64,000 nt of DNA from an uncultured Planctomycetota bacterium (lineage in GTDB: Bacteria > Planctomycetota > Planctomycetia > Isosphaerales > Isosphaeraceae): NCBI GenBank assembly GCA_963845755.1, contig CAWJTV010000033.1, positions 192,001 through 256,000 on the forward strand. Direction: 5' to 3'. The notes beneath the pieces were generated by a model that was not told where the DNA came from, searched no databases, and saw only the letters and a list, made by a program, of their open reading frames with translations. A program made the position numbers and the translations under genes. Below are positions 14,686 to 30,483 of this stretch, piece by piece (the stretch's first letter is position 1; each line of letters starts with the position of its first letter).

Positions 14686-15684
14686 ATGATTCGCCGATAT
14701 GTTAATCAGTTGACACATGGAGACTCGGTCGACGAGGTCTTCCTCGTCGCCGACAAGCAGCTCCGGGCCAATCGCCAGGGGAACCTGTACCTCCAACTGG
14801 AGCTCAGGGACAAGACCGGGAGCATCGGGGCGCGGCTCTGGAACGCGACCGAGGAGCTCGCCCGGACCTTCGAGCCCGGAGACTACCTGCGGATCCGGGG
14901 CAAGACGCAGGTGTTCCAGGGCTCGCTCCAGATCATCCTGACCCACATCGACGCGATCGACGGGTCCCAGGTCGAGCCCGAGGAGTTCCTCCCGCAGAGC
15001 TCGCAGAGCGTGGCCAAGCTGATGGGGCGGCTCCGCGAGGTCCTGCTGGCGATGAGCAACCCGCACCTCCGCGCCCTGATCGAGTGCTTCCTGATCGACG
15101 ACGACTTCGTCCGGAAGTTCACCCTCGCGCCGGCGGGGATCAAGAACCATCATGCCTATCAGGGCGGGCTCGCCGAGCACGTGGTGACCCTGCTGAACGT
15201 CGCCGACCGGATCATGGGGTTCTACCCGGAAGTCGATCGCGACCTGCTCATGACCGGCATCTTCCTCCACGACATCGGCAAGGTCGACGAGCTGTCCTAC
15301 GACCGGGCGTTCGCCTACACGGACGAAGGTCAGCTCGTGGGCCACCTGGTCATGGGCGTGGAGATGCTGGCAGAGAAGGTCGAGCGTTGTGCCGAGCTCA
15401 TGGGCGAGCCGTTCCCCCCCGAGCTGCTCCTGCGCCTCAAGCACATGATCGTCAGCCACCACGGCAACTTCGAGTACGGCAGCCCGAAATTGCCGATGAC
15501 CCTCGAAGCCATCGCGCTCCACCTGCTGGACAACCTGGACGCCAAGATCCACGCGTTCAGCCGCGAGATCCGCGACGATCCCAGCCGCGACTCGAGCTGG
15601 ACGCCGTTCCAGCAGAACCTGGGCCGACGGTTGTTCAAGGGCAACCCCAACGCGAACGGGAGCGACGGCGGGGCAGAGCTCTGA
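14686..15684 (+). CDS. yhaM: OB-fold/HD-domain 3'-5' exoribonuclease, YhaM/Cbf family
   Basis: N-terminal OB fold (YLQLELRDKTGSIGARLW), then PAGIKNHHAYQGGLAEH, LHDIGK, VSHHG and LDNLDAK. Confidence 0.88.
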   Translation: MIRRYVNQLTHGDSVDEVFLVADKQLRANRQGNLYLQLELRDKTGSIGARLWNATEELARTFEPGDYLRIRGKTQVFQGSLQIILTHIDAIDGSQVEPEEFLPQSSQSVAKLMGRLREVLLAMSNPHLRALIECFLIDDDFVRKFTLAPAGIKNHHAYQGGLAEHVVTLLNVADRIMGFYPEVDRDLLMTGIFLHDIGKVDELSYDRAFAYTDEGQLVGHLVMGVEMLAEKVERCAELMGEPFPPELLLRLKHMIVSHHGNFEYGSPKLPMTLEAIALHLLDNLDAKIHAFSREIRDDPSRDSSWTPFQQNLGRRLFKGNPNANGSDGGAEL

Positions 15685-15724
15685 TCTCACGTTCGCGGAC
15701 CACTCTCGGCCACGGGACCCTGCG

Positions 15725-16337
15725 ATGCCATCATTCCGAATCTCCTTGGCAGCCCTGATGGGGATCATCGGGGTCATCGCACTGGGCCTCGCCGGGATGG
15801 TCTCGGCCTCGACCTTCTGGACGGCGTCCGCGGCGACCGTCACGCTTGCCCTCCTCCTGGCGGCCATCTTCGAGCGCCCGCCTGAGCGACGGGACCGACC
15901 GTGCGATCTCGTCCGGATTCGCCCTGTTCGGCTGGACTTACCTGCTGCTGGTGAACTGGGACTGGGTCGGCGGCCAGTTCGGCCACGACCTGACGGCGGG
16001 CCTGAGTGACGTTGCCGAGGCGATTTTCCCCGAGGTCAGAGCCCCCGTATTACCGCCGTCGCAATCGACCATGCCCCCGGTGCAAGCGATTCAGACCGTG
16101 ACGGTGAAACCCGGTCAGACGCCCGCGGACCTGACGCCTCCAACTCCTCCGGTCCTCACACAATTCGAATACCTCGAGCTGGTGCACCGGCGGCAGACGA
16201 AGATCGGCAACTTCGCCCAGATCGGTCGCATGATCCTCTCGCTCCTCTTCGCGATGCTGGGCGGTTTCCTCGGCCGTTTGCTGGCGCAACGTCGCGAATC
16301 ACGGTCGAGACCGGCGGAGCGGGCGGAAACCGGGTAG
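15725..16337 (+). CDS. planctomycete multi-pass membrane protein with R-I/F-x-L-x-x-L-M leader (frameshift near 15870)
   Basis: ORFs 15725..16009 and 15846..16337 join. Shares GFA-x-x-GW-x-YL and LLGG/MLGG-x-L motifs with 44246..44785. Confidence 0.65.
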
Positions 16338-16371
16338 TCCCGAGTCGCTGGATTCCGACTGGATCGACGAC

Positions 16372-16572
16372 CTGGTGAAGCGGCGGTTGAAAGATGCCGG
16401 GCTGTCGCCGCATTCGTTTCGCGTGACGGCGATCACCGATTTGCTCAGCCAGGGGATTCCGCTCGAGGACTTGCAATACCTGGCCGGGCATGCCGAGCCG
16501 AGGACGACCGGGCTTTACGACTGGCGGCAGAAGAAAGTGACGCGGAACATCGTGGAGAGGATTTCGATTTGA
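16372..16572 (+). pseudogene. C-terminal remnant of a tyrosine recombinase
   Basis: LVKRRLKDAGLSPHSFRVTAIT...LAGHAEPRTTGLYD...VERISI matches the C-terminus of 19080..20048 at 55/66 aa (manual count). No N-terminal part is present upstream. Confidence 0.92.
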
Positions 16573-16604
16573 TGATATAGGGTTTTGATTCGAGGATCGA
16601 AAAC

Positions 16605-17441
16605 ATGGATGAGAAATTTCATCCGGCACAGGCGGCACTCGCCGCAGGCGATGTCGAGAATTTGGCCTCGCTGTTAGAGGCGGACGCCGGGTTGGCGGCA
16701 GCAGTCTCCCATGCGGAGGACCATCCGACGCTCCTGCAATGCCTCGTACTTACCATGCCACCGGTTGATACCTTGGAAAAGCTGATTGACCTCCTGGCAG
16801 ATCATGGTGCCGAACTGACCGACCCGCTCATCGCGGCGTGCGGGTGCAACAACGAACGCGCGGTCGCGAAATTGCTCGACCTGGGAGCCAGGATCGAGGG
16901 TAACGGCCGCTGGTCGCCCTTGGAGGAAGCCCTGTATTTCGGGCACGAGGCAATCCTGTCGCTCCTGCTCCGGCGGGGAGCCGTCGCCGACAACCTCCGC
17001 ACCGCGGCCGGGGTCGGAGACCTGGAGAAGGTCGCCCGCTGTTTCGATGAGCAGGGCATGTTGACGGCGGCGGCCGGAGAAATCGACTGGCCGTTTGACC
17101 ATAAGGCGATACCGGCAGACTTGCGGCGCGACCGCCAGCAAATGCTCGGAAATGCCCTCGTCTATGCGGCGTCATGGGGGCGTGTGGAAGTGGCAAAATA
17201 TTTGTTGGATCAGGGGGCCCAGGTCAACCTTATCCCCGTAGGTTTTGACTACGCGGGCACGCCGCTCCATTACGCTGCATTCCAAGGCCGGCGGGAGATG
17301 ACTGATATGTTGTTACAACACGGGGCTGATCCCGCCGTGCGGGACACCAAGGTCGATGGTCTGCCGGAAGATTGGGCCGAACATTTCGGCCACACCGATC
17401 TCGCTGAGTACCTCCGGCACGCCCGTCAACGTGCCGAGTGA
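16605..17441 (+). CDS. ankyrin-repeat protein
   Basis: SPLEEALYFGHEAILSLLLRRGA, ALVYAASWGRVEVAKYLLDQGA and GTPLHYAAFQGRREMTDMLLQHGAD. Confidence 0.9.
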   Translation: MDEKFHPAQAALAAGDVENLASLLEADAGLAAAVSHAEDHPTLLQCLVLTMPPVDTLEKLIDLLADHGAELTDPLIAACGCNNERAVAKLLDLGARIEGNGRWSPLEEALYFGHEAILSLLLRRGAVADNLRTAAGVGDLEKVARCFDEQGMLTAAAGEIDWPFDHKAIPADLRRDRQQMLGNALVYAASWGRVEVAKYLLDQGAQVNLIPVGFDYAGTPLHYAAFQGRREMTDMLLQHGADPAVRDTKVDGLPEDWAEHFGHTDLAEYLRHARQRAE

Positions 17442-17615
17442 CGAATTGGTCGGATAACCCTCGGCGTTAAGCTTCCGGCGAGGCCGTTTGTCAAATCCGC
17501 GCGGGTACGGAAGTGGTTTGAGACAGAATCGTTTGAAATCGAGGCGCACCCTTTACGGCAGGCCTGTGGAAGTGATATATTCGCCCTGAATCTGTTGGCA
17601 GTGGAGGTAGCTAAA

Positions 17616-17876
17616 ATGTCCATGCCGGGATTTACCGCGGCAGCCTCGCTTTACAGAACGAGCACGCAGGATTACGGGCGTGCGGCCGCAGAGGATGCTA
17701 GCCGAGCTTCCCTAATACCCGCACTGCGGATTGGGGAAGGGCCGGGCTCGGTCAACTGCAATGACCCTTTTGCCTACTATTGCCTTGAATGCGGCGGAAC
17801 GGGCCCGGGGACGATCAGATGCTGCCCAAATGATGACTGCATCATAATAGACCGCCTGCCGGGGCGCCTTGCCTGA
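17616..17876 (+). CDS. small Cys-rich protein with PGFTAxASL leader
   Basis: GGAGGT SD 7 nt before ATG 17616. 86 aa, starting MSMPGFTAAASLYRTS, with a 6-Cys C-terminal region. Confidence 0.7.
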   Translation: MSMPGFTAAASLYRTSTQDYGRAAAEDASRASLIPALRIGEGPGSVNCNDPFAYYCLECGGTGPGTIRCCPNDDCIIIDRLPGRLA

Positions 17877-18099
17877 CGCCCGCTGGCGTGCAGATGGCCT
17901 GATTCAACATATCTGGATTCACTGCTGAGGTTTCTTTGGATCCCAGCAGCGCCATTTACCGAATGGGCGGTTATACCTGCCCTGCAGGTGACATCGCGCC
18001 CCAAAATGGCGACGGATTGCTCAGCGTGTAGCGATCCGCTCCGCGGAACCAGGTACCGCTGCGGGTCGCCACCGACGCGGCGACGACGCACGTGGGAGT

Positions 18100-18260
18100 C
18101 ATCAGCAGAGCCGGATGGCTAGGACGGGCGCGGCGCGTGAGTCGCGTCAGGAAAACCTCGTGGGCCGCGGCGGGATCGGCGAGGCCCTGAACCCATCCGC
18201 TGCCGGTTTCCGTGAGGTCTCGCTGACGATGCCGCCGTCATCGAAGGTGAACGCGGCCAT
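18100..18260 (-). pseudogene. degraded PIN/VapC-type toxin
   Basis: ATG at 18260, 3 nt after the antitoxin's likely stop. Reads MAAFTFDDGGIV then, after a shift, ETGSGWVQGLADPAAAHEVFLTR, resembling a VapC N-terminus. The rest is missing. Confidence 0.55.
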
Positions 18261-18263
18261 GCG

Positions 18264-18561
18264 TCAGCGCCACTCTCGGATGATCGTGCTCAGACAGTGG
18301 TTCACCCTCGAAGGCGATGGGCTGGAAGGCCGGGCGCGACGCGGGATCGGCAGGAGTGGGCAGGCTCGATATGCGGCCGGATTTCAGGAGGTGTTGCTTG
18401 AATTCCGCTTCGGTCATCCGGGGGCCGGTTGTCGGCGTCGGGACGTGGCTGCGGAGTTGCTCCATCGCGTCGCGGGTGGAATCGTCCTCGGAGCGATAGC
18501 GCCCTGCGAGGACTTGATTATGGACGAACCACTCCAGTTCGGCGGGTAAATGGATCGTCAT
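18264..18561 (-). CDS. ribbon-helix-helix antitoxin (ParD/CopG-like N-terminus)
   Basis: MTIHLPAELEWFVHNQVLAGRYRSEDD. A C-terminal EGEPLSE-TIIREWR* is restored by a 1-nt shift (stop at 18264). Confidence 0.7.
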
Positions 18562-18717
18562 ACGATAGTTTCTCCTTGAGGTCTCAGCTTAACACAGGCG
18601 GGCGGCGTTGCCCCACCGGTCGTCATTGCATCCATGATACCAAGTGATTCTTTTTACTGGGGAAGTTAGCATTGGCCATCAAAACGTACGCAGTCATGTC
18701 AAATTCGAGGCGGTGCC

Positions 18718-19065
18718 ATGAAACGATTCCGGCTGAGCACACTGATGCTCCTGATCGTGATCGCGGCCTTGGTCGTCGCCCTGGCGGTGCAACAGCAGCA
18801 GGCGGGCCGCCGCGAGGCCAAACTCCAGGCCCGCTTGGCTCAGTCCTGGCCGGTCTACCTCAAGCAGCAACGGGAGGAGGCACTGCTACGACGGTTGGTG
18901 GCGAGACGAAGTCCAGGAGGGACCCAACGGCAAGAGCCGGAAGATGCAGAGCTAGACCGCGAGATTGAAGCGATGAAAGAGTTGGCAAAAACGATCGAAA
19001 CGGAAGCTCGGCGGCGACCGAGGCGAGGGACACCGACAGTCGGACGCCGAAGCACGAGTAATTAG
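18718..19065 (+). CDS. small single-TM protein with RFRLSTLM leader and coiled-coil tail
   Basis: MKRFRLSTLMLLIVIAALVVALAV with GAGG SD. Ends 14 nt before the recombinase start. Confidence 0.75.
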   Translation: MKRFRLSTLMLLIVIAALVVALAVQQQQAGRREAKLQARLAQSWPVYLKQQREEALLRRLVARRSPGGTQRQEPEDAELDREIEAMKELAKTIETEARRRPRRGTPTVGRRSTSN

Positions 19066-19079
19066 GGAGGGGATAGAGG

Positions 19080-20048
19080 GTGAGTAGCGAACTGGTGAAC
19101 GTGTCGGCAGCGAACGGCCCGGTCATCGTCGCATCGGCGTTGCTGCCGGAACTGGTCGAGCGGGCAGGGGGGGCGGCACGCTTCGCCTGGGAGGAATTTC
19201 TCTTTGCCGAGCACCACAACCCGCATACGCAGAAAGCCTATCTGCGGGCGGTCAAGGCGTTCCTGGGCTGGGCCGAGGGGCAGGGGGTGGAGCTGGCCAG
19301 CGTCACGCCGGGGATGGTCGGCCGGTATATCGTGGGCCCGGGCGGCTCTCCCGCCAAGCGTAACCAGCATTTGGCGGCGCTGCGCGGCTTCTTCGACCGG
19401 CCGGTGAACCGGCATGTCGGCATCCTCGACCCGGCAGCGTCGGTGCGTGGCGTCAAGGACCAGGTGATCGTGGGCAAGACGCCGGAAATCACCATCGAGC
19501 AGGCTCGGACGCGGCTGCGGTCGGTCGATACCGGCCATGTGGTGGGCTTACGTGATCGGGCGATTCTCGCTACGCTGGCCTATACCGCCTGCCGGGCCGG
19601 GGCGGTCGCCAAGCTGCGGCTGAGCGACTTCCAGAACGACGGGACGCAGTACGTGCTGCGGTTCCAGGAAAAAGGTGGCAAGAGCCGGGAAATTCCGGTG
19701 CGTCACGATCTGGACAAATTTATACTGGCGTATGTCGAAGCGGCGGGCATCGCCGGCGAGGCCAAGGATTCGCCGCTGTTCGGGGCGTCGAACGGCCGGA
19801 GCTGGAAGTTGGCGGCGAAACCGCTGCGTACCGAGCGGATTTGCGAGCTGGTCAAGCGGCGGCTGAAAGACGCCGGGCTGTCGCCGCATTCGTTCCGGGT
19901 GACGGCGATCACCTCGCTGCTGGAGCAGGGGGTGCCGATCGAAAACATGCAATACCTGGCCGGGCATGCGGAGCCGCGAACGACGACGCTTTACGACCGG
20001 CGGAAGAAGGAAGTCACGCGGAACATCGTCGAGCGGATTCCGATTTGA
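19080..20048 (+). mobile_element. tyrosine recombinase/integrase (full length)
   Basis: 322 aa with the catalytic set R (TACR), K (EKGGK), HxxR (HSFR), H (LAGH) and Y (TTLYD). N-terminal SAM-like region NPHTQKAYLRAV. Confidence 0.93.
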
Positions 20049-20249
20049 TGTCCAATGATATGTGGAGGCTACGTTGAAGTGCGTTGTCCTACTCGGGTTC
20101 CCAAATCTGCGGTTTTGCTGTTTCCCGACGGAGCCTAGAATCTGAGGGCTGATCGACTTACCGATCCCAGCCGGAGCCTGATCCCGCATCAAGTTCAGGG
20201 TGGAAAGACGTTCTTCGAGGCGAAGAAACTTCAAATGGAGGGGGCCGAA

Positions 20250-20510
20250 GTGAAGACCATCCACAAGTACTCACTTGATACAACCCGCGAAGACAAGATC
20301 ACCGTCATGATGCCCCTTGTCGCCAAAATCGTGATGGTCGGATCGCAGAACGGTCAGCCTTTCCTCTGGGCCATAGTGAACTCAGAAAGCCCCCTGATCG
20401 AAAGGCATTACCGCCTGATCGCTACCGGCCAACCAATCCCCGGCGGATATGAACATGTTGCGAGTTTCACCAGGAACAACGGCGAGTCCACCTGGCACCT
20501 TTTCGAGTGA
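20250..20510 (+). CDS. small hypothetical protein resembling a phage-associated family (DUF7352-like)
   Basis: GGAGG SD then GTG. Reads KTIHKYSL...MP..AKIV.V..QNG.P.LWAIV...TGQPI...WHLFE. Family name recalled from memory, not searched. Confidence 0.6.
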   Translation: MKTIHKYSLDTTREDKITVMMPLVAKIVMVGSQNGQPFLWAIVNSESPLIERHYRLIATGQPIPGGYEHVASFTRNNGESTWHLFE

Positions 20511-20651
20511 CGGAGCGATCGTTTTTTTCTGGACGACCTTGAATTCTCCGATTGGCTAGTGCCGGTGAGCGTCGATGACCAATGCCAAGGACGGCCGCAC
20601 GGTCGCCGAGCTAATTGGCCTACGCCGTCATGTTCGATTCGAGGTGGTGCC

Positions 20652-20915
20652 ATGCGACGTTTCTGGCCGAGGACGCTGATGCTCTTGATCGTGATCGCGG
20701 TCTTGGTCTTCGCCCTGGTGTTGCTCGATTCCTTACCTAGGCTCATCGTATGGAATTCGTAAGTCCTTGGGCCGAATCTCAGGGCCGAGCTGAACGCTTA
20801 AATTGCTGAGTTGAACCAAAGTAACACGGAGTTGCTAATGAAACTGATAAATGCAGATCAAGGATTCCAGGTCGAGGTGAAGAGGGCAAAGGCCGAGAAA
20901 CCGGAGGTAGAGTGA
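20652..20915 (+). pseudogene. second copy of the RFRL-leader gene, with two in-frame TAA stops
   Basis: MRRFWPRTLMLLIVIAVLVFAL. The same frame continues through TAA 20760 and TAA 20799 as NLRAELNA*IAELNQSN... to TGA 20913-20915. Confidence 0.7.
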
Positions 20916-20949
20916 GCAACGATCTGGTCAAAGCGTCATCGGCAATCGC
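20912..20949 (+). pseudogene. N-terminal remnant of a third recombinase copy
   Basis: GGAGG SD, then GTG AGC AAC GAT CTG GTC AAA (MSNDLVKASSA) versus MSSELVNVSAA at 19080. 27/38 nt identical without gaps (manual count), in the same position relative to the leader gene. Confidence 0.5.
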
Positions 20950-21071
20950 TGTCAATAGACCCGAAGCTTAACGAGGTTAGCGGACCCGAACCTTGACGAG
21001 CTTGAGGTTCTCCTCACGGGGCAGTTTCCTCCAAGTTAAGCAGCCTGCAAATCGAGGCCAGCATGAGCTGA

Positions 21072-21190
21072 GAGTCTGTCCCAGAAGGGGCGGGTCCGGG
21101 CGAGCGGGGGGCGTCAGCCCCCTGTCTTGGAGGTCCGTCGCTCACCGGACAGGGGGCTGACGCCCCCGCTCGCCCTTCTGGGACAGACTC
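21072..21190. mobile_element. MITE-like palindromic element with internal REP-type hairpins
   Basis: Terminal inverted repeat gagtctgtcccagaaggg / cccttctgggacagactc. Inner arms gggcgagcggggggcgtcagccccctgtc / gacagggggctgacgcccccgctcgccc. Flanked by TGA and TTA. Confidence 0.7.
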
Positions 21191-23047
21191 TTAATAAGGA
21201 TTCAGTTGAGCTTTATTATATATGCCAACCGCCTCCGTTACGGTTTTTGCCTTTCTGAATTCCACGGTTGCCGTAGGACCGATCTTACTCACGAGCTTAT
21301 TGAGGAATGAAGGATCATCTCGGAAATAAGCGTCGAGCAGCTCCTTGTCATTGACACGTAGCGACCCGAGTATTTCCATCAACATTTTCTTCTCTTTTGA
21401 ATAGTAGCCGGTTTCGATCTCCGCCCCAATCTGAGCACACACAAGCATGGCGATATAATCTGTCGCGCCTTCGTTCATCAAGTGCCCCAGAGCACTCGCG
21501 AAACCCGCCCCTCCAAACTTGTGTACAGCTTCATGAACTGCGATACGGAAGCCGACTTTGTTTGGTCGAAGATAGATCTTTCCATCTTTGTCGCTCTGGA
21601 AACCGTGGACCCTGTCGATTTTGCTCGCCTCCCGCATGCGAACAGTCTCGATGACATCCTTTGACTTGCCGATTAGCAGATGGCCATTAAGATGAAGCCA
21701 ATCCTCCCAATGCCGTTTAGCGAATTCTGCGTCTTTCAACACGACAACGTCACCCGCTACCTTCTTCCCACTTTTGACTTGTTCGATGATGTACTCCGAG
21801 ACATGCGGAGAATCCTGCAGCAACTTGTCAATTTCAACTCCAGGCGATTTGGGCATCTCCATTCTTCCGGAGCAAATGTCGTCAATCGTGGGTTCGACGG
21901 ACTCCGATCGCGCACGATCAGAATACTCCGCGGCCGAAGACCTAACTTCTTCCTTGCTCATGGTTTCGAGCAGCCGATCCCAATTGGCCGTATCGTTTCC
22001 GGCGCGAGCCTTGAGCCAGCTTGAAAAACTAGCTAGTTGGTCTATATCAGCTTTTAATTCATCGAACATTTCCTTGAGTGTAACCCTCTGGACCACTCTC
22101 GGGGGACCGGAAATGGGGGCGCAGTTCGATTTCTTTGCCACCACGCCGGGCCTTCGAGCAAGGATCGGTCCAGTTCTCCGCTGGACCGAAGCATGATCCA
22201 CAACGCGCGCTGGCAAGATCGCCCCATTCGCCGCGACGGTCTTCGGCCGGGAAGCCAAACCAGCGACCGATCCGCTCCCCGTAATCTTCGCCGGGATTGG
22301 CAGGGGCGCCGACGCCGCCCGCATCCCCATTCGGTCTGCTTCGGCCTCGAGCGCCGGGTCTTGCACGACCGCCAGTCCCGAGCCTAGCGGATTACGCACC
22401 CGACCCGCCCTCTGCTGCACCACGTGCGTCAACTCGTGACCGAGGAGGTGTTGGCCCTGTATCGACTGCGGATTGTACTGGCCGGGTGCGAAGTAAAGGT
22501 CCGAGCCGTGAGTAAAGGCCAGCGCACCAATGGCCGTGGCCTCGGGTCCGACGTGCACGCGGACATCCGCGAAACTGGTGTTGTAGAATGCCTCCATCTT
22601 CCTCAGGATCGGCTCGGGTAGGGGCTGGCCGCTACCGTGCGGTTTGAGCATGAAATTCGCCGGCAGAGCAAACGCATTGCCAGCCTGGGGTTGCACAGCC
22701 GTCGGGGTTGCCGGTGCCGGCAAGATCGGCCGGGGCAATTGCGGGCGTGGCGGCATCGCCGGCACAAGGGCGCCGGGCTGCGGCTTGGCTGGGAGGATCA
22801 CGCGGGGTGGTTGACCGGGGCGGATCGCCGGCTGATGAGCCCCGGTGGCGGCACGGCCAGGCAGGATCGGAGCCGGCGGAGAATCCGGGCGCGACTGGAC
22901 CGAGGCCGCCACTTGCGGCCGAACCGGCGCAGCAAGGGCGGGAGACGGCTGGAGTGTCTTGGGGCGCCCGCCGGGGAAAAAGCCCTGGATCACGCGGGAC
23001 GAGATGCCGGGACGAGCGGCGGAGATCGGTCCGGATGAAGGCGTCAT
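21191..23047 (-). CDS. DUF4157 (eCIS core domain) protein with C-terminal HExxH metallopeptidase-like domain
   Basis: GQPLP...FADVRVH...GALAFTHGSDLYFAPGQY...LLGHELTHVVQQ...EAEAD, VQR linkers, and C-terminal HEAVH...NEGATDY. Confidence 0.85.
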   Translation of the reverse strand: MTPSSGPISAARPGISSRVIQGFFPGGRPKTLQPSPALAAPVRPQVAASVQSRPDSPPAPILPGRAATGAHQPAIRPGQPPRVILPAKPQPGALVPAMPPRPQLPRPILPAPATPTAVQPQAGNAFALPANFMLKPHGSGQPLPEPILRKMEAFYNTSFADVRVHVGPEATAIGALAFTHGSDLYFAPGQYNPQSIQGQHLLGHELTHVVQQRAGRVRNPLGSGLAVVQDPALEAEADRMGMRAASAPLPIPAKITGSGSVAGLASRPKTVAANGAILPARVVDHASVQRRTGPILARRPGVVAKKSNCAPISGPPRVVQRVTLKEMFDELKADIDQLASFSSWLKARAGNDTANWDRLLETMSKEEVRSSAAEYSDRARSESVEPTIDDICSGRMEMPKSPGVEIDKLLQDSPHVSEYIIEQVKSGKKVAGDVVVLKDAEFAKRHWEDWLHLNGHLLIGKSKDVIETVRMREASKIDRVHGFQSDKDGKIYLRPNKVGFRIAVHEAVHKFGGAGFASALGHLMNEGATDYIAMLVCAQIGAEIETGYYSKEKKMLMEILGSLRVNDKELLDAYFRDDPSFLNKLVSKIGPTATVEFRKAKTVTEAVGIYNKAQLNPY

Positions 23048-23439
23048 CGATCCAACCTCAAGAGGAATACCCTCGATCTGTGATTAGCCAGCACACCCGG
23101 TCATGACGGAGTCATCAAACCCAGCACCCCAACAACTGCGAGATGAGCGTGGGCATCGGCATCGTCGGGCCAAGCGACTCACTCTAATCCTGCATTATTG
23201 AATTGCGACGAACTTGGCGTCAAAGGGTCGCCACGAAAAACATGGAACTGGCCACGGTACGACCGGAACACCCAGACCGAAGGCGCACGCGGCACGATCG
23301 GCCGGGGGCCTTTGGTTTCCAGTTCCGGGCACATGAAGGCTGGGAACGGGTTGGGAAATGTTTTCCCACTCAGATCGATGCGCCTCGCGCCGGGGACGGA
23401 CCGTTCAGCAAGAGGGTGGCGCTCCGCGTCCGACGCGGT

Positions 23440-23900
23440 TCACTCCGGCCCCGGCTCCGCGACGGGCACCGTCACTCTGTGGGAGACAGCGAAGCTGACG
23501 GGGGAGCCGTACGTCTTGTCCGGCGACCGGCTGCGCACCAGGTCGACCGCGGCGACGGGCCAGCCCGAAGGGGTGTGTTCGAGCCTGTAGGTCTGCCGCT
23601 CGTTGCGGTCGAGATAGAAGGCTTCCATCACGATCCGGCAGGCGTCAAGGCTTTCGGGCTCTGCGGCGAAGATGGCGTGGCTCTAACGGGAGGCAGCGGG
23701 TTTCAGGTCGTCAGCGACGCCCGTCCACCCGCGGTCGCGGGGCGGACCGGTGAAGGCGTCGAGCTAGCCCTGCAGGTTGCCGAGGCGTCCCCGGTCCACC
23801 AGGTCGCGGAGCCGGGCCTCGGCGGCAGCGAAGAGGGAAGGCGGTTCCGGTATCGGTGCGGGGCCGGGTGCGATGAGAGTCGAATTCGCAAACCGGCTAG
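23440..23900 (-). pseudogene. decayed fragment of a hypothetical protein
   Basis: Coding-like reading AEARLRDLVDRGRLGNLQG*LDAFTG...EAFYLDRNERQTYRL with an in-frame TAG and no start context. Confidence 0.35.
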
Positions 23901-24085
23901 CTGGTGACGGCGGGGCAGTAGACCAAACGAAAGGTTGCTTGACTCAGGCGTATGGATGGATATTGGACTTCATCTCTCGGTGCGTTCTACTGTAGTGGAT
24001 ACGCTTCCCGTAACGACTTTTCGAGACGAATTACGCCTCCGCGATGATCGGCGTTGAGATGTGCCGAGCCAGTGATCGCCGGGTT

Positions 24086-26509
24086 TCACGGAAATAGTTC
24101 GACGGTTTGTGAGGTCACGATCGCGGAGCCGACCCCCTCGACCCGAGTCCCGCGTTCGGCGCCTGTGGCATTGTGGACCGCGGTGATGAGCCGGGTCAGG
24201 TCGACCGGCTTGGTGAGGTGTGCGGCGAACCCCGCATCCAGGCTCGCCTGGACGTCCTCTTCCGACCCGTACCCGCTCATCGCGATCGCCGGCAGTCCCC
24301 TCCCGCGCAGTTGCCGCATCAATTCCAACCCCGTCCCGTCGGGCAGCTCGATGTCGCTGACCAGCAGGTCCAAAGAGGGGTCGGCCGCGGCCAGGAGCGC
24401 CTCCGAAAGGCGTTCCGCCACCGTCACCTCATAGCCACGCGCACCCAGCACCAGGGCGAGACACTTGAGCGTGTCCTTGTTGTCCTCCACGACGAGGATT
24501 CTTAGTCCCCTCGACTGCGGCAGGGGGCAGGGGAACGAGCCCGAGGGCGGCTTCACGACGGCGGGCCGCGTGATCGTGGGTAGCTCCAGCACGAAGGTGC
24601 TGCCCCGACCTGACCCCAGGCTTGTCGCGGTCAGCCGGCCGCCATGGGCCTCGGCCAGCGCCCTGCCAATCGCCAGTCCCAACCCCAACCCGCCGCGATG
24701 ACGCGGAGAGACCTCGCCCTGCTCGAATGGCTCGAAGATCCGGGTCAGGGACTCCGCTTCGATGCCGGCTCCGTTGTCGACCACCTCGATCTCGAGGCGC
24801 GGTCGGCCGCCAGGCACCCGGGGGAGCCGGTTGCGGGAGCGGACGACGATGGAACCGCCGGGGTGGGTGAACTTCGTGGCATTGCCGATCAGGTTCCAGA
24901 TGATCTGCTGGAGCCGTGCCGGATCGGCTTCCACGTGGTGTTCGGCAGCAGTCAGGTCCGACCTCAGCGCGATCCGGCCCTTTTCGATTTCACCGAGGCA
25001 GTTCTGGACGGCATGGCGGACGGCATCGTGAGCGTCGACGATGCGGAGGTCGAGATGGAGGCTCCCGCGACCGATCCGGGTAACGTCCAGCAGGTCATCG
25101 ATCAGCCGAGCTTCCAGCTCGACGTTGCGGCGGATCATTTCCAGCGTCGGGCGGAGACCGGGCATCTCGTCCTCGTCGAGCAGCGCCGAGACGGCCATCA
25201 GGACGGGGGAAAGCGGGGTACGCAGTTCATGGCTGAGGACGGCCAGGAAGCGCCCCTTGGCCCGGTCGGCCGCCTCGGCCTCCTGCCGCGCCTGTCGGGC
25301 CGCGCGGTACAGACGGGCGTTATCCACGGCCAGTGCGGCGCGGCGGGCCAACTCCTCGGCCAGCGTCAGGTCGGACGCGTCGTAGCGGCGAAGTCTGTCG
25401 GTGTGGATCAGGGTGACGACGCCCAGCACCCGCCCCCGCGCCGTCAGCGGGATGCACAGGTACGACGCGAAACCCAGCCGCCGGAGGACCTCCAGGTGCG
25501 CGGCATTGCGGGCCGTCGCCGCCAGGGTGGCATCATCGACCTGTTCGGTCGCCTCGGCACGGCCGCTCCGCAGGGCCCGCATCGCCGGGTGGGGGCCTTG
25601 AGGGTCGGGCGGGTAGCGCCGCAGTTCGTCGACCAGGGGCTGCTTGGCCGGGTCGGCGTGGGCGGCCGCCGCCCGGATGACCGTCCCGTTCTCCTGAATC
25701 ATGTCGATCAGGCAGAGGTCGACCGGCAGTCGCACCGCCAGGCAGGCCAGGGCGTCGAGCGTGGCCTCGTCGTCGAGCGACGAGGACAGAACCGCACCCG
25801 CCTCGGCCAGGAGCCGCTGGGCCTCCTCCGCCCGCTTCCGTCCGGTGATTTCGCGGACGTTGCAGACCATGCCGGCGACGGCCGCGTCGTTGAGCAGGTT
25901 GGTGACGGTGCCGTCCAGCCACCGCCAGGTCCCGTTCTTGTCCCGGATCCGGTAGTCCACGCCCCGGCTGGCACCGGGCTCCCCCCGCAGTTCGTCGAGC
26001 AGGCGGCCGACCCGCCCCCGGTCGTCCGGGTGGATCAGCTCGAGTGCGTCGCGGCCGACGAGATCTTCGGGGGCATGGCCCAGCGTGTGCGTGACGGTCG
26101 GGCTGGCGTACCTCACGATCCCGTCGGCGGAGACGACCGAGATAACGTCCCAGCCCCTCTCGATCAAGGCACGGAACCGCTGCTCGTTCCGCTCGGCCCG
26201 CCGCCGGGCGGCGTGCAGGACCTCGGCCAGGGCGCTGATCGACACCCCGCTGGCGATGCCCAGGACCAGCCGCACGATCCGCCAGTAGGGGAAGGATGTG
26301 TGTGAGGTCAGCAGGACGATCACGGCGGTGGCCATCAGTCCCGGCCCGAGACCGCCGTACCAGGCCGAGAGCAAGACGCCGAAGAAATAGACGAGGATCG
26401 GCGTCCCCGCCCCGTCCCGGATCGCCGGGATGTTCATCACCGCTACGCCCAGAGCGAGGATTATCACGGCGAACCCGTAGCGTCGAATCCGGTCGGAGAA
26501 TGTCCTCAT
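24086..26509 (-). CDS. hybrid sensor histidine kinase (membrane DUF4118-like, PAS, GAF, HisKA, HATPase, receiver)
   Basis: IHPDD PAS motif, LSHELRTPL H-box, QIIWNLIGNA N-box, DNGAGI, GLGLGL, and a receiver with VEDN...SDIELPD...KP. Confidence 0.95.
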   Translation of the reverse strand: MRTFSDRIRRYGFAVIILALGVAVMNIPAIRDGAGTPILVYFFGVLLSAWYGGLGPGLMATAVIVLLTSHTSFPYWRIVRLVLGIASGVSISALAEVLHAARRRAERNEQRFRALIERGWDVISVVSADGIVRYASPTVTHTLGHAPEDLVGRDALELIHPDDRGRVGRLLDELRGEPGASRGVDYRIRDKNGTWRWLDGTVTNLLNDAAVAGMVCNVREITGRKRAEEAQRLLAEAGAVLSSSLDDEATLDALACLAVRLPVDLCLIDMIQENGTVIRAAAAHADPAKQPLVDELRRYPPDPQGPHPAMRALRSGRAEATEQVDDATLAATARNAAHLEVLRRLGFASYLCIPLTARGRVLGVVTLIHTDRLRRYDASDLTLAEELARRAALAVDNARLYRAARQARQEAEAADRAKGRFLAVLSHELRTPLSPVLMAVSALLDEDEMPGLRPTLEMIRRNVELEARLIDDLLDVTRIGRGSLHLDLRIVDAHDAVRHAVQNCLGEIEKGRIALRSDLTAAEHHVEADPARLQQIIWNLIGNATKFTHPGGSIVVRSRNRLPRVPGGRPRLEIEVVDNGAGIEAESLTRIFEPFEQGEVSPRHRGGLGLGLAIGRALAEAHGGRLTATSLGSGRGSTFVLELPTITRPAVVKPPSGSFPCPLPQSRGLRILVVEDNKDTLKCLALVLGARGYEVTVAERLSEALLAAADPSLDLLVSDIELPDGTGLELMRQLRGRGLPAIAMSGYGSEEDVQASLDAGFAAHLTKPVDLTRLITAVHNATGAERGTRVEGVGSAIVTSQTVELFP

Positions 26510-27533
26510 GGGCGAGCCCTCCACCGACCATCAGCACGCGCTTACGCTCGCGAGTCAGGACACATCGCTGGCCTCGGCGGATCGAGAGGCGCCATGGGGG
26601 GCCGATTGCAACCCGGGAATCTCTCTCCCGCCGAAACGAACGACCTGCCTGCTAATGCGTCCAGGCCGCTTCCCTCGGGTCGCGACAGCTAGCTGACCCA
26701 GCAGGATGCTGATGTCTTTCCTCTGAACCTGACGCCGGCCGCGAGGGCCTCACGGGAGGCCGCCCAGTTCCTCCCAGCCTCTTGAGTCCCGTACCGCCGA
26801 TTTCAGACCATTCCTATTATAGCCAATACTGGCAGGCATTCAAGCCAACTAAAGGATGGGAGGCGTATTCGCCTCCGTACAACCGCCTCGGTACACAAAA
26901 GGCTGCAGAAACAGGGGACTGTTGGTACTCCCGGCAGAATGAGTAATCTCCATGATCTCACAAACAATTCGACGCGCCCGCCAGCGACGCTGGCCTTGAC
27001 CGTCGCCGGAGGCCCGGCCGATCCGCTCCTGGGTCATCGAAGTCGCAGATCGACCGCGCGCTCGCGCCAATCCACCGGCAGATAGAATTTTTCAAGAAAA
27101 TTATTCCCTTATATTATAGAGAGTTAGGTCAAGATTCTTGCTCATTTTGGCCGAAATGCGTTCTCGTTTTTTCCAAGTTGCGGCATCCTAACTAATAACA
27201 AGTCCTCCGTCCTCAAGCCTTCTGAGGTTGCCTTCCCGCATGATTCGCCGAGATCGGGGCCCCGAGGCGGGAAAAGCGACAGCACATAGCGTTGCATCCA
27301 CCCAGTAATAGTACGCACAAACTCAACCAAGATCGAATGGATGCCACCATCAGAACATGATCGATATTTGAGAGCCGACGAACGAATCCGAGCTCGCACA
27401 TGTCAGACCCAAACGACGAAGAGCTTCATGATTTTAGGCGTCACCATAACTGTGAGAATGGAACTAAGCGTGCATGCTATCTTATGTCGAACCGGGTTCC
27501 TGGAGCAACCCTCAAATCGTTTCTCATCCTCAG

Positions 27534-27720
27534 AACTTCGAAATCGAAGCCACGATTATCCGGAATGTATCGATTCGCGAGTCCCCCAGTTCGATATCGA
27601 AACCGCGCGAACGAACCCGACATCGGAAACTTCGAAATCGAAGCCACGGTTATCCGGAATGTATCGATTGCGTGACCATTCCCAACCTCGATATCGAAAT
27701 CGCGCGAACGAAGCCAACAG
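27534..27720. repeat. two-copy tandem repeat, period about 94 bp
   Basis: aacttcgaaatcgaagccacg(a/g)ttatccggaatgtatcgatt...tcgatatcgaaa(c/t)cgcgcgaacgaa starts at 27534 and again at 27628. Confidence 0.85.
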
Positions 27721-28159
27721 GCCGCATAAACCGCCGGACCGGAAGAAATCGCGAAATCGGTGAAATCAACTCAACCGAGGAAATCGCGCTTAACACCTTA
27801 CACGGCAAGTTCGTCACAATCGGGAGAACTTCCACGGCGGAGTTCGGGTGACCAACGGCCCGCTCGGCGCCCCCAGAAAGCCGAGGATCGGGCTGAGGCG
27901 ACGTGTGTGAATTCTAGATTGCATGGATCAAATCGAAGCGGATCGATGGGAGGAAAGGCACCCGATACCCGCGCGGAGAGCGACCCGACTCTCCCTCGCG
28001 TGATCGGGGGCATCCTTCCTGCACTCGACTCAGTCGTCGCCTTGTGTGGGAAACGTCCGACGGGACCCAGCGTGCGTCTGCGAATCCCTGCCGCCCGACT
28101 CGGTGGGTCAACGATTCGTCAACTGAACACGGAACACTCAGCGACCGGAGCGAGCGGAG

Positions 28160-30483
28160 ATGGCCGATTTCGCCGCAGATGTCTTGAAGCTGGTCTCCGA
28201 ACCGGGTTACAAGCCGATCACGCTCAAGGCGATGTCGCGTCGGTTCCAGATGGATGCCGACGACTACGCCGAGTTTCGCGCCACGGTCAAAGGATTGATC
28301 AAGGAGGGGAAGCTCGACCTGGCCAAGGACAAGACCCTGCGCCGGCCCGATCAAGCGGGGATGATCGTCGGGCTCTTCCGCCGTTCGGCCCGGGGATTCG
28401 GGTTCGTCCGCCCCCATTCGACGTCCGCGCGTTTGGAGTCGATCTACATCGCGCCCGAGGCGGCCGGCGATGCTTCCAGCGGCGACGAGGTCGCGGTCAA
28501 GATCACCAAGCGCAGCGCGTCGGCCTGGGATGAACGATGAGGGGCGGGTCGTCCAGATCCTGGCGCGGGCCTCGGGGATCTTCGTCGGCACGTATTTCGA
28601 GGAAGCCGGTTTCGGATTCGTCCGGATCGACGGCACGACGTTTCACGACCCCATCGACGTCGGCGACCCGGGCGCCAAGGGAGCCAGGCCCGGCGACAAG
28701 GTGGCCGTCGAGATCGTCCGATACCCCAGTCCGTACCAGGAAGGCGAGGGGGTCATCACCGAGATCCTCGGCCAGCGGGGCATGCCGGGCGTCGATACGT
28801 TGACGGTCATCCGCGCGTTCAACATCCCCGACACCTTCGATGAGGACGTCCTCGATGAGGCGCGCGATCAGGCCAAGCGATTCGACGAAGCCGAGATCGG
28901 GCCGCGCGAGGACCTCCGGGATCTCCTCTGCGTGACGATCGACCCGGCCACCGCGCGCGACTTCGACGATGCCATCTCCCTCGCGCGCGACGAACAAGGT
29001 TACTGGAGCCTGGGCGTGCACATCGCCGACGTGTCGCATTTCGTCCGAGCGGGATCCCCCTCGACCGCTCGGCTCGCGACCGCGGCACGAGCGTCTACCT
29101 GCCCGATCGCGTCATCCCCATGCTTCCGGAGATCCTCTCGAACAGTCTTGCAAGCCTCCAGGCCGGTCGCACGCGGTACACCGTCAGTGCCTTCCTCGAG
29201 TTCAACAGCGAGGGGATCCTGACTTCGAAGCGGTTCGCTCGTTCGGCGATCCGGGTCGACCACCGCTTTACCTACGAGCAGGCCCTGACGGTCATGAAGG
29301 CCCCCGCGGCGGCTCATCACGGTGTCGCCCCCGCGGTGGCCCGCATGCTAGGCGAGATGCTCGAGCTGGCCATGATCCTCCGCAATCGTCGCTTCGAGCG
29401 CGGGCGCTGGAGTTGAACCTTCCCGAGGTCGGGATCGAGCTGGGCGACCAGGGTGAGGTCACCGGCGCGCATCTCGCCTCTCACGACGAGAGCCACCAGG
29501 TCATCGAGGAATTCATGCTCGCGGCGAACGAGGCCGTCGCGACGACTCTCGGCGCGCAGGGGATCCTCTTCCTCCGGCGCGCCCATCCCGACCCCGAGCC
29601 CTTCAAGCTCGACGAGTTCGCCGAATTCGCCCGCAGCCTGGGCCTGGCCATCGAGTTGCCGCAGAGCCGCTTCGAGCTCCAACGCGTCCTGAAGGAGACG
29701 GCCGGCCGGCCGGAAGAGTACGCGGTTCACTATGGGTTGCTCCGCAGTCTGAAGCAGGCCAATTATACGCCGGAAGCCGAAGGACACTATGCGCTGGCCA
29801 GCGCGGACTATTGCCACTTCACCTCGCCGATCCGCCGCTACCCGGACTTGCAGGTCCATCGCCAGTTGCTCGCCTGGCTCGAAGAAAAGAAGCCCGCGAA
29901 CCGGCTGGACGAGCTGATCGTCCTGGCCGAGCACTGCACGCGCACCGAACGGCGGGCCGACGCCGCGGAGCGCGAGCTGATCCGCGTGAAACTCCTCTCC
30001 TACCTGGAGACCCGCATCGGCGACTCGTTCCAGGCGGTCATCGTGAGCGTCCAGGACTTCGGCCTGTTCTGCCGGCTGACGCAGTTGCCGGTCGAGGGCC
30101 TCATCCACGTCACGTCCCTGGCGGATGACTACTATTACCTGGAGTCCGGCACGCACACGCTGGTCGGGCGCAGGTCGGGTCGCCGCCACCGGCTGGGCGA
30201 CCGCGCCATCGTCCGGATCGCCCATGTCGAAGTCGATCGCCGCGAGCTCGATCTCGTCCTGGAGGATTCGCCCCTCTCAGGGTCCCGGAGCCGGGCGCGC
30301 GCCGGCGCGGAGCCGAACTCTCCAACCGGTCGCGCCGACGGACCGGTGCGGCGGGGTTCCCAGCGGGGGCGAGCCCGATCTTCCGACGAGCCAGCCCGGC
30401 CCGCCCCGAGCCCGGCGGACTCGACCGCCAAGCGCAAGAAGAGAAAGGCCAAAGCCAAGGCGAAGAAGCGCCGGCGGAAGTGA
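28160..30483 (+). CDS. rnr: ribonuclease R (split by about 3 apparent frameshifts)
   Basis: GFGFV cold-shock domains, TIDPATARDFDDAIS, VHIADVSHFV, IEEFMLAANEAVA, HFTSPIRRYPDL, an S1 domain (EGLIHV) and a basic tail. Confidence 0.95.

What the first reader, a model, noticed from the sequence alone, without database searches (positions are those of the whole stretch)
15725..20949. Tandem array of [constant-leader membrane gene -> tyrosine recombinase -> variable cargo] modules
Seen: (i) an intact recombinase at 19080-20048. (ii) A diverged copy of its last 66 codons at 16372-16572 (55/66 aa), with similarity ending 2 nt after the stop (gatttgatg) and different cargo behind each copy: ankyrin, Cys-rich peptide and TA pair versus a phage-like small protein. 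(iii) Two copies of a leader gene (18718, 20652) sharing the upstream region (29/34 nt up to the ATG, plus attggcc) and about 25 codons of RF-x-x-x-TLMLLIVIA-TM, then diverging completely. (iv) Each leader gene runs directly into a recombinase start, the second a 38-nt remnant at 20912. A more distant member of the leader class also precedes the first remnant. Inference: three related units accumulated at one hotspot, each pairing a recombinase with a constant-N/variable-C membrane protein and a swappable cargo slot. This would be a cassette- or shufflon-like diversification element rather than a classical integron (no attC array recognised) or prophage. I do not recognise it as a described system.
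Basis: partly seen in the sequence, partly recalled or inferred. Interest (0 to 1): 0.78.

Follow-up and report, generated by a model that had tools for sequence, protein, structure and literature searches.

The report
Decayed resolvase modules lacking their sites
Three broken, back-to-back copies of a small DNA-swapping module sit in a soil bacterium's chromosome; intact relatives pair the same enzyme with a short palindromic crossover site where neighbouring genes are exchanged, but these copies have lost that site.

Summary
The recombinase belongs to a family found in 66 of 121 related genomes and on 136 plasmid records. This is the layout of the F-plasmid rfsF-ccdAB-resD resolution module. 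In relatives, shared sequence breaks at the site's 6-bp spacer, the signature of site-specific crossover. The leader gene is one passenger among many: 8 of 31 close loci carry it, its class has about 70 members in this genome, and its tails diverge gradually rather than at a fixed breakpoint. The 'distant leader' at 15725 is a syntenic host gene. The window holds pieces of three independently derived units inside an 11.8-kb insertion. No complete site is left (one probable half-site), and several genes are pseudogenes. It is a relic of a resolvase/site module system, not an integron or shufflon. I did not find this family's site in the papers searched. The scan noted similar layouts on other DNA (ResD/rfsF; archaeal 11-6-11 arrays).

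The parts
15725..16337 (+). Host membrane-protein gene of the RF-x-L leader class, frameshifted near 15870; left flank of the island, not part of a module
   Evidence: Orthologue follows yhaM in G025, G026, G071; in G025 and G026 it is followed directly by rnr (window 28159)
16346..16572 (+). Unit 1: 3' remnant of a recombinase of the L033/L037 subtype, carrying the same 12-bp deletion as the intact copy
   Evidence: a short-read contig spans 16306-16456 with 1 mismatch and no gap
16605..17441 (+). Unit 1 cargo: ankyrin-repeat protein
   Evidence: Pfam Ank_2 3.7e-21; paralogue elsewhere on C33 has no site beside it
17446..17460 (+). Probable left arm plus 3 spacer bases of a downstream ('B') site; right arm gone
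   Evidence: Matches the left arm of the downstream sites of L032/L101/L047; the 11-mer occurs 5 times in 14.27 Mb; scores below background with the full-site matrix; motif chosen after seeing it
17610..17876 (+). Small Cys-rich protein with MPGFTAAASLY start; accessory gene
   Evidence: No Pfam/NCBIfam/PHROG hit; unnamed Atlas clusters at 0.88-0.89, lead only
17850..18561 (-). Type II TA pair: ParD-like antitoxin (18238-18561) and a toxin broken by frameshifts (PIN type inferred from the similar pair on C40); divergent from the recombinase, as in several relatives
   Evidence: TIGR02606 1.9e-6, below cut-off
18718..19065 (+). Unit 2 slot gene: single-TM 'leader' protein; the site expected 81 nt upstream of its ATG is not recognisable
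   Evidence: Five sister units have the spacer 80-81 nt before the ATG; best candidate here scores -4.7; homology to sisters starts at 18673
19080..20048 (+). Unit 2 Xer-like tyrosine recombinase (core-binding + catalytic domain, no arm-binding domain), probably decaying
20235..20510 (+). Unit 2 cargo: DUF7352 protein, shared at 95% with the sister unit L047 in G046
20614..20620 (+). ATTGGCC microhomology junction where L047 homology ends and the upstream region of leader 2 begins; inferred deletion of the downstream site of unit 2 and the upstream site of unit 3
   Evidence: L047 continues about 300 nt further to a complete B site
20652..20915 (+). Unit 3 slot gene: leader pseudogene, 87 codons with two in-frame stops
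20912..20949 (+). Unit 3: first 13 codons of a third recombinase, resembling the L035/L050 starts more than the window's own
   Evidence: by eye

Best explanation
The region is a decayed tandem of three modules of a widespread resolvase system. The intact module is: symmetric 11-6-11 site overlapping a promoter -> 0-3 coupled passenger genes -> Xer-like tyrosine recombinase -> cargo, often with a TA pair on the far side of the site and sometimes further sites downstream. A homomeric recombinase most likely binds the palindrome, represses its own operon and crosses over in the 6-bp spacer. On plasmids with one site this resolves dimers (inferred). Where several sites or degenerate look-alikes exist, crossovers swap what lies left and right of the site (shown by comparison). 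Passenger and cargo are reassorted by homologous exchange inside the recombinase gene and by illegitimate capture (inferred). In the window, three such units from different subtypes joined behind yhaM, and later deletions removed the sites, leaving stubs and pseudogenes.
For: Site: 73 matches in 89 recombinase loci (1.58 Mb) vs 6 in the 14.27-Mb genome; the five best genome-wide sites flank the C29 and C40 copies; 58 of 89 loci have one within 1.2 kb upstream, 27 of 89 have two or more; 10 of 10 fetched plasmid/phage homologues from other phyla have it upstream. Outer arms track recombinase relatedness (0.71-0.79 identity above 75% aa, 0.30-0.41 below). Crossover signature: 11 copies of one left flank (60-nt identity mean 0.84) join 7 different right flanks with the break just after the spacer; 8 leader-type units share the right flank (27 of 28 pairs 0.68-0.94) with left flanks at shuffle level (0.44-0.61, null mean 0.49). 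Plasmid copies lie beside rep, par and TA genes. Empty site in G025 and G026. Sister unit L047 keeps both sites. Identity to L047 steps from about 0.85 to 0.92-0.97 inside the recombinase. Extra recombinase stubs are common: 8 C-terminal, 4 N-terminal, 5 full, 4 internal in 88 loci.
Against: No recombination was shown experimentally. The window itself has no complete site, so the link rests on relatives. The site rule was made after seeing the sites; in 60 loci fetched later (10 overlapping loci already seen) only 32 had a strict site. Upstream and downstream sites of one locus have different arms and mostly different spacers and are each self-symmetric, so excision between them is not indicated by hybrids. 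The 11-copy left-flank set comes from only two genomes of one other genus. Host XerC/XerD acting on the sites was not excluded. How the modules first reached the chromosome is unexplained.
Confidence: 0.7

Rival explanations
1. Self-mobile mini-elements: each site-passenger-recombinase-cargo-site unit excises as a circle between its two direct sites and integrates at like sites or pseudo-sites, so tandems form by repeated integration (a pdif-module-like platform with its own recombinase).
For: 7 of 8 close loci with both an upstream and a downstream site have them in direct orientation; homology among units starts at the outer edge of the upstream site and, for L031/L032/L101, ends at the downstream site; hybrid sites with non-matching right arms exist; C29 holds a second tandem with three sites.
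Against: Only 12 of 31 close loci have a downstream site; arm pairs are not A/B hybrids; no identical module was found in two unrelated contexts apart from the G025/G026 repeat; no joint attributable to a circle in four low-share runs.
Confidence: 0.3
2. One reading: a shufflon- or cassette-like diversifier that pairs a constant N-terminal membrane leader with swappable C-termini and cargo through fixed breakpoints.
For: Leader precedes the recombinase in 8 other loci; heads are 74-85% identical while some tails are unalignable (L031 vs four others z <= 0.2); many alignments end at codons 34-41.
Against: Other tails are clearly homologous and diverge gradually; no repeated site at the TM junction and no inverted repeat set; most family members have other slot genes or none; leader 2 is a pseudogene.
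Confidence: 0.07
3. A single old tandem duplication that decayed in place.
For: Remnant and intact copy share a 12-bp deletion seen elsewhere only in L047.
Against: The remnant's 3' part is closer to L033, L071 and L037 (0.875-0.905) than to the neighbour (0.827); the two belong to different subtypes by their C-terminal motifs; leader 2 is as close to G046 copies as to leader 1. The shared deletion is better explained by local exchange or repeated slippage.
Confidence: 0.05
4. The sites are substrates of the host XerC/XerD (true pdif), and the recombinase gene is only a passenger.
For: 11-6-11 geometry with inner ATAA/TTAT as in dif (recalled; geometry also in 10.64898/2026.09.14.751567 passages); some arms resemble TTATGT.
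Against: Sites are symmetric rather than C/D asymmetric, their arms change with the linked recombinase, and the same core occurs in planctomycetes, proteobacteria and acidobacteria.
Confidence: 0.08

Closest known systems
F-plasmid rfsF-ccdAB-resD multimer-resolution module (ResD/rfsF, RsdB)
   Same: Site upstream, coupled passengers (ccdA, ccdB) between site and tyrosine resolvase, next to rep/par (record NC_002483). PMC9412624 (passages) reports plasmid homology ending at rfsF, a TA pair next to it, and possible acquisitions through it.
   Different: ResD matches only over 75 aa at 28%. The palindrome upstream of ccdA has a different sequence (best as 8-bp spacer). This family has a longer N-terminal domain, occurs in chromosomes, and often has several sites per locus.
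TnpI/IRS of Tn4430 and Tn5401, and TA pairs at Tn3-family res sites
   Same: Tyrosine resolvase downstream of its core site, TA pair divergent on the other side, exchange of TA modules at the site (PMC7157771, passages).
   Different: No Tn3 transposase next to any copy in 5 genomes searched; no DR1/DR2 accessory repeats were looked for or seen.
Acinetobacter dif modules (pdif, XerC/XerD) and the Tn6022 XerC-like/dif-like system
   Same: Accessory and TA genes between 11-6-11 sites; mosaic flanks (PMC9455709, PMC11014353, passages).
   Different: Those use host XerC/XerD or a XerC-like enzyme with host XerD on asymmetric sites; here sites are symmetric, tied to an element-encoded enzyme, and number 1-4 per locus.
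Integrons (IntI/attI/attC) and the R64 shufflon (Rci/sfx)
   Same: Tyrosine recombinase beside variable genes.
   Different: Not IntI, no attC array; no inverted sfx-like repeats or alternative C-terminal segments.

Membership tests
Tyrosine recombinase, simple (Xer-like) type | Core-binding plus catalytic domain with R-K-HxxR-H-Y, no arm-binding domain | tested here: met
Chromosomal XerC/XerD | Score above TIGR02224/TIGR02225 cut-offs | tested here: not met
   93 vs 335 and 89 vs 330 bits
Plasmid resolvase module of the ResD/rfsF kind | Palindromic core site upstream of a site-passenger-resolvase operon | tested here: met
   Met for the family; the window's own copy has lost the site
Plasmid resolvase module of the ResD/rfsF kind | ResD orthologue and rfsF sequence | tested here: not met
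   28% over 75 aa; different palindrome
Plasmid resolvase module of the ResD/rfsF kind | Resolves multimers at the site | not testable with these tools
   Needs an assay
Tn3-family transposon with TnpI | Linked DDE_Tnp_Tn3 transposase | tested here: not met
   None adjacent in 5 genomes; nearest about 32 kb away on G025:C36
pdif/dif modules | Asymmetric XerC/XerD arms | tested here: not met
   Within-site symmetry of outer 7 bases 0.84, partly imposed by the selection rule; the host dif site was not identified
pdif/dif modules | Homology breaks at sites between modules | tested here: met
Integron | IntI-type integrase | tested here: not met
   TIGR02249 36.9 vs 265 bits
Integron | attC array | tested here: inconclusive
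   No repeated hairpin family between genes in 15600-21200; no attC covariance model was run
Shufflon (Rci) | Several inverted sfx repeats with alternative C-terminal segments | tested here: not met
Prophage or SSV/Mx8-type split integrase | Virion genes; complementary int(N) and int(C) at the two ends | tested here: not met
   No structural PHROG among 8 island proteins tested; 13 + about 76 codons are not complementary and come from different subtypes

The most novel reading that the evidence does not exclude
The family is an undescribed, cross-phylum set of single-recombinase/symmetric-site pairs that share one spacer but differ in arms, and in Isosphaeraceae-type chromosomes it has become a self-contained dif-module-like platform that captures and shuffles TA, defence and membrane genes by crossover at cognate and pseudo-sites; the window is a fossil of such an array.
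Probability: 0.35. Interest if true: 0.75.

Novelty: new variant of a known kind. Interest (0 to 1): 0.5.

Why it matters
It assigns a predicted target site to a common but anonymous 'tyrosine-type recombinase/integrase' of small plasmids in proteobacteria, acidobacteria and planctomycetes, which makes its function directly testable and may explain how plasmids lacking dif sites resolve dimers. The arm variants are candidate orthogonal recombinase/site pairs. If the crossovers seen in planctomycete chromosomes are ongoing, this is a further route, besides integrons and pdif modules, for moving TA and defence genes. The window locus itself is dead or dying and matters mainly as the pointer.

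Tried and rejected
Leader as a system-specific gene: rejected. Fixed breakpoint after the TM segment or after the stop: rejected. tRNA/tmRNA target: none in the window. Split-integrase prophage: pieces not complementary. Tn3 resolvase: no linked transposase. Full site in the window: none with two matrices (best 5.4 in the whole window; best 7.3 in 15600-28200). A global test of alignment ends near sites gave only 172 observed vs 77 expected of 11,738 ends, diluted by recombinase-gene alignments. Reads: four runs held 5-12% of the words; they confirm short pieces but may include the source sample, and joints at 80% likeness come from related recombinases, so circles were neither seen nor excluded. 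Metagenome scan for the exact site gave 4 short contigs, 2 with the recombinase downstream. Atlas look-ups for the leader and the Cys-rich peptide gave unnamed clusters only. No paper describing the leader class was found in one search. Exact site 16-mers: 0 papers.
Full report
Setting. The window is G000:C33:192001-256000 of a 14.27-Mb, 64% GC genome. Relatives of its recombinase come from planctomycete records, including Isosphaeraceae. The flagged region follows yhaM. In G025 and G026 yhaM, one membrane gene and rnr are contiguous, and in G071 about 2 kb separate them.

Observation. All four points check out. Additions: the remnant repeat starts at 16346; leader 2 is an 87-codon frame with two stops; the TA toxin is frameshifted; the full-length recombinase lacks four residues before SPHSFR and has 9 substitutions at columns conserved among 15 close relatives, of which L108P was also absent from five further copies. 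The 12-bp deletion is in both window copies and in L047 of the same-genus genome G046, and a short-read contig covers it in the remnant, so it is not an assembly error.

The family and its site. The protein has matches at E <= 1e-40 in 66 of 121 genomes of the family, G000 included, on 136 plasmid records and 3 phage records. Scanning flanks for palindromes showed a site upstream of the gene: 11-13-bp symmetric arms ending in ATAA/TTAT around a 6-bp spacer such as tcccct, cgccct or tgtcct. It lies about 40-80 nt upstream when no gene intervenes and 290-1100 nt upstream when passengers do. A strict rule finds 73 sites in 89 loci (1.58 Mb; L065 and L114 are one locus) against 6 in all of G000. 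The rule was written after seeing the sites; among 60 loci fetched later, 10 of which overlap loci already seen, 32 have a strict site. With a matrix, 58 of 89 loci have a site within 1.2 kb upstream and 27 of 89 have two or more. I fetched 10 of the 139 plasmid and phage records; all 10 have the site upstream (one, L133, repeats a site used to build the rule). The complete 8-kb plasmid L134 has one strong site, beside rep, an AAA ATPase and a TA pair, as expected for dimer resolution. Outer arms are 0.71-0.79 identical between loci whose enzymes are over 75% identical and 0.30-0.41 otherwise (pairs are not independent), which points to binding by the linked enzyme. A TGnTAnnnT-like element follows the site in many loci (by eye), so the site probably overlaps the operon promoter (inference).

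Evidence for crossover at the site. Eight leader-type units share the 100 nt right of the site (27 of 28 pairs at 0.68-0.94) while their left flanks are at shuffle level (0.44-0.61; null mean 0.49, max 0.58). Conversely, a 0.9-kb non-coding segment ending in the left arm occurs in about 14 copies in G025 and G026. In 11 anchored copies (L154 dropped as near-duplicate of L149; L163 and L031 not anchored) the left 60 nt average 0.84 identity, conservation runs through the spacer and two more bases, and the right sides fall into 7 classes; 5 copies have a second site 70-81 nt further on. L034 joins this left flank to the leader unit. At downstream sites, L031, L032 and L101 share the left side while L047 and L101 resemble each other on the right. 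These are the patterns expected from tyrosine-recombinase crossover in the spacer. Against a simple excising element: only 12 of 31 close loci have a downstream site, and although 7 of 8 two-site close loci are in direct orientation, their arms differ and are not hybrids of each other.

The leader gene. But among 31 loci at 64% identity or more it occupies the slot in 8, the window included; others carry glyoxalase, GNAT, Shedu, MazE/PIN or UPF0175 pairs, Imm53, another leader-class gene, or nothing (50 of 118 called genes were scanned). One fully supported five-member clade holds three different slot genes. The leader class itself is common: 70 ORFs in G000 by an iterated profile, 3 near a recombinase, all in the window. 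Tails are homologous in some pairs (z 22.5, 11.3, 5.0) and not in others (L031), so divergence is graded. Because the slot has no site on its 3' side, slot and cargo swaps need another route; the step in identity to L047 inside the recombinase (about 0.85 to 0.92-0.97) suggests homologous exchange in the gene. Similarity ending at the stop codon is then only the end of the conserved CDS; the sequences after the stop share nothing.

Reading the window. L047 is the sister of unit 2: site, leader, recombinase (split by an IS), DUF7352 at 95%, then a downstream site. In the window, homology to L047 ends at 20621 in an ATTGGCC microhomology and continues into the upstream region of leader 2, so a deletion probably removed two sites. 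Unit 2's own upstream site is unrecognisable at the expected place. After the ankyrin gene, 17446-17460 looks like the left half of a downstream site (post hoc). The three recombinase pieces are of different subtypes, so they are separate acquisitions. Such stubs are common in the family, and C29 of the same genome has a similar tandem that still has three sites.

Comparison with known systems. The layout is that of F-plasmid rfsF-ccdAB-resD (lead from earlier scan notes), but ResD is only remotely similar. PMC9412624 (passages) reports homology ending at rfsF and possible acquisitions through it. PMC7157771 (passages) describes TA pairs at Tn3 res/irs sites and exchange there; no Tn3 transposase is linked here. 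pdif modules and the Tn6022 XerC-like system use host Xer proteins (PMC9455709, PMC11014353, passages). The planctomycete plasmidome preprint (10.1101/2024.01.22.576637, passages) lists a PF00589 recombinase on 9 plasmids without a site. PMC8138268 (passages) did not let me place the family; 10.64898/2026.09.14.751567 and PMC11724359 (passages) did not describe it. Nine searches found no description of this site, but the library lacks most subscription papers and I read no supplements.

Verdict. A real but decayed tandem of resolvase modules. The mechanism is of a known kind; the family's site and its use for shuffling in planctomycete chromosomes appear undescribed. Shown: anatomy, site association, breakpoints at the spacer, host-gene status of 15725. 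Inferred: binding, resolution, autoregulation, the order of events in the window.

Noticed in passing
window 21068-21191: 123-bp double-hairpin repeat (REP/MITE-like) with dozens of 93-98% copies across the genome.
   Followed up: no
window 21191-23047 (-): 618-aa protein with proline-rich N-terminus and eCIS_core domain, low-GC C-terminal part, inside the same insertion.
   Followed up: no
window 17610-17876: Cys-rich small protein with an MPGFTAAASLY start; unnamed clusters in Acidobacteriota/Myxococcota at 0.88-0.89.
   Followed up: partly
G025/G026, e.g. L034:10290-11200 (-), L149-L156: A 0.9-kb non-coding segment ending in the site's left arm is present in about 14 copies, some followed by a 70-81-nt mini-module and a second site; it contains a G-run terminus that may be a Tn3-type inverted repeat (unchecked). 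Possibly the end of a non-autonomous element.
   Followed up: partly
L108, L126, L127, G000:C40 102623-103664: In distant family members two sites in inverted orientation bracket the recombinase gene alone, which would make it an invertible segment.
   Followed up: no
G000:C29 384300-388700: Second tandem in this genome: site, small gene, frameshifted recombinase, cargo, site, TA genes, inverted site and a recombinase start cut by an IS.
   Followed up: partly
G000 genome-wide: About 70 ORFs begin with an RF-x-L-x-x-LM + TM motif that has no Pfam or NCBIfam model among those tested; not found described in one paper search.
   Followed up: partly
window 27534-27719: Imperfect 42- and 39-nt direct repeats at about 95-nt spacing in a low-GC stretch just before rnr, at the right end of the insertion.
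   Followed up: no
L033, L038, L042, L106, L109: Defence-type genes (Shedu, CAP12 TIR, DuOB+DUF488, Abi_alpha, RelA/SpoT) sit next to the site or recombinase in relatives.
   Followed up: no
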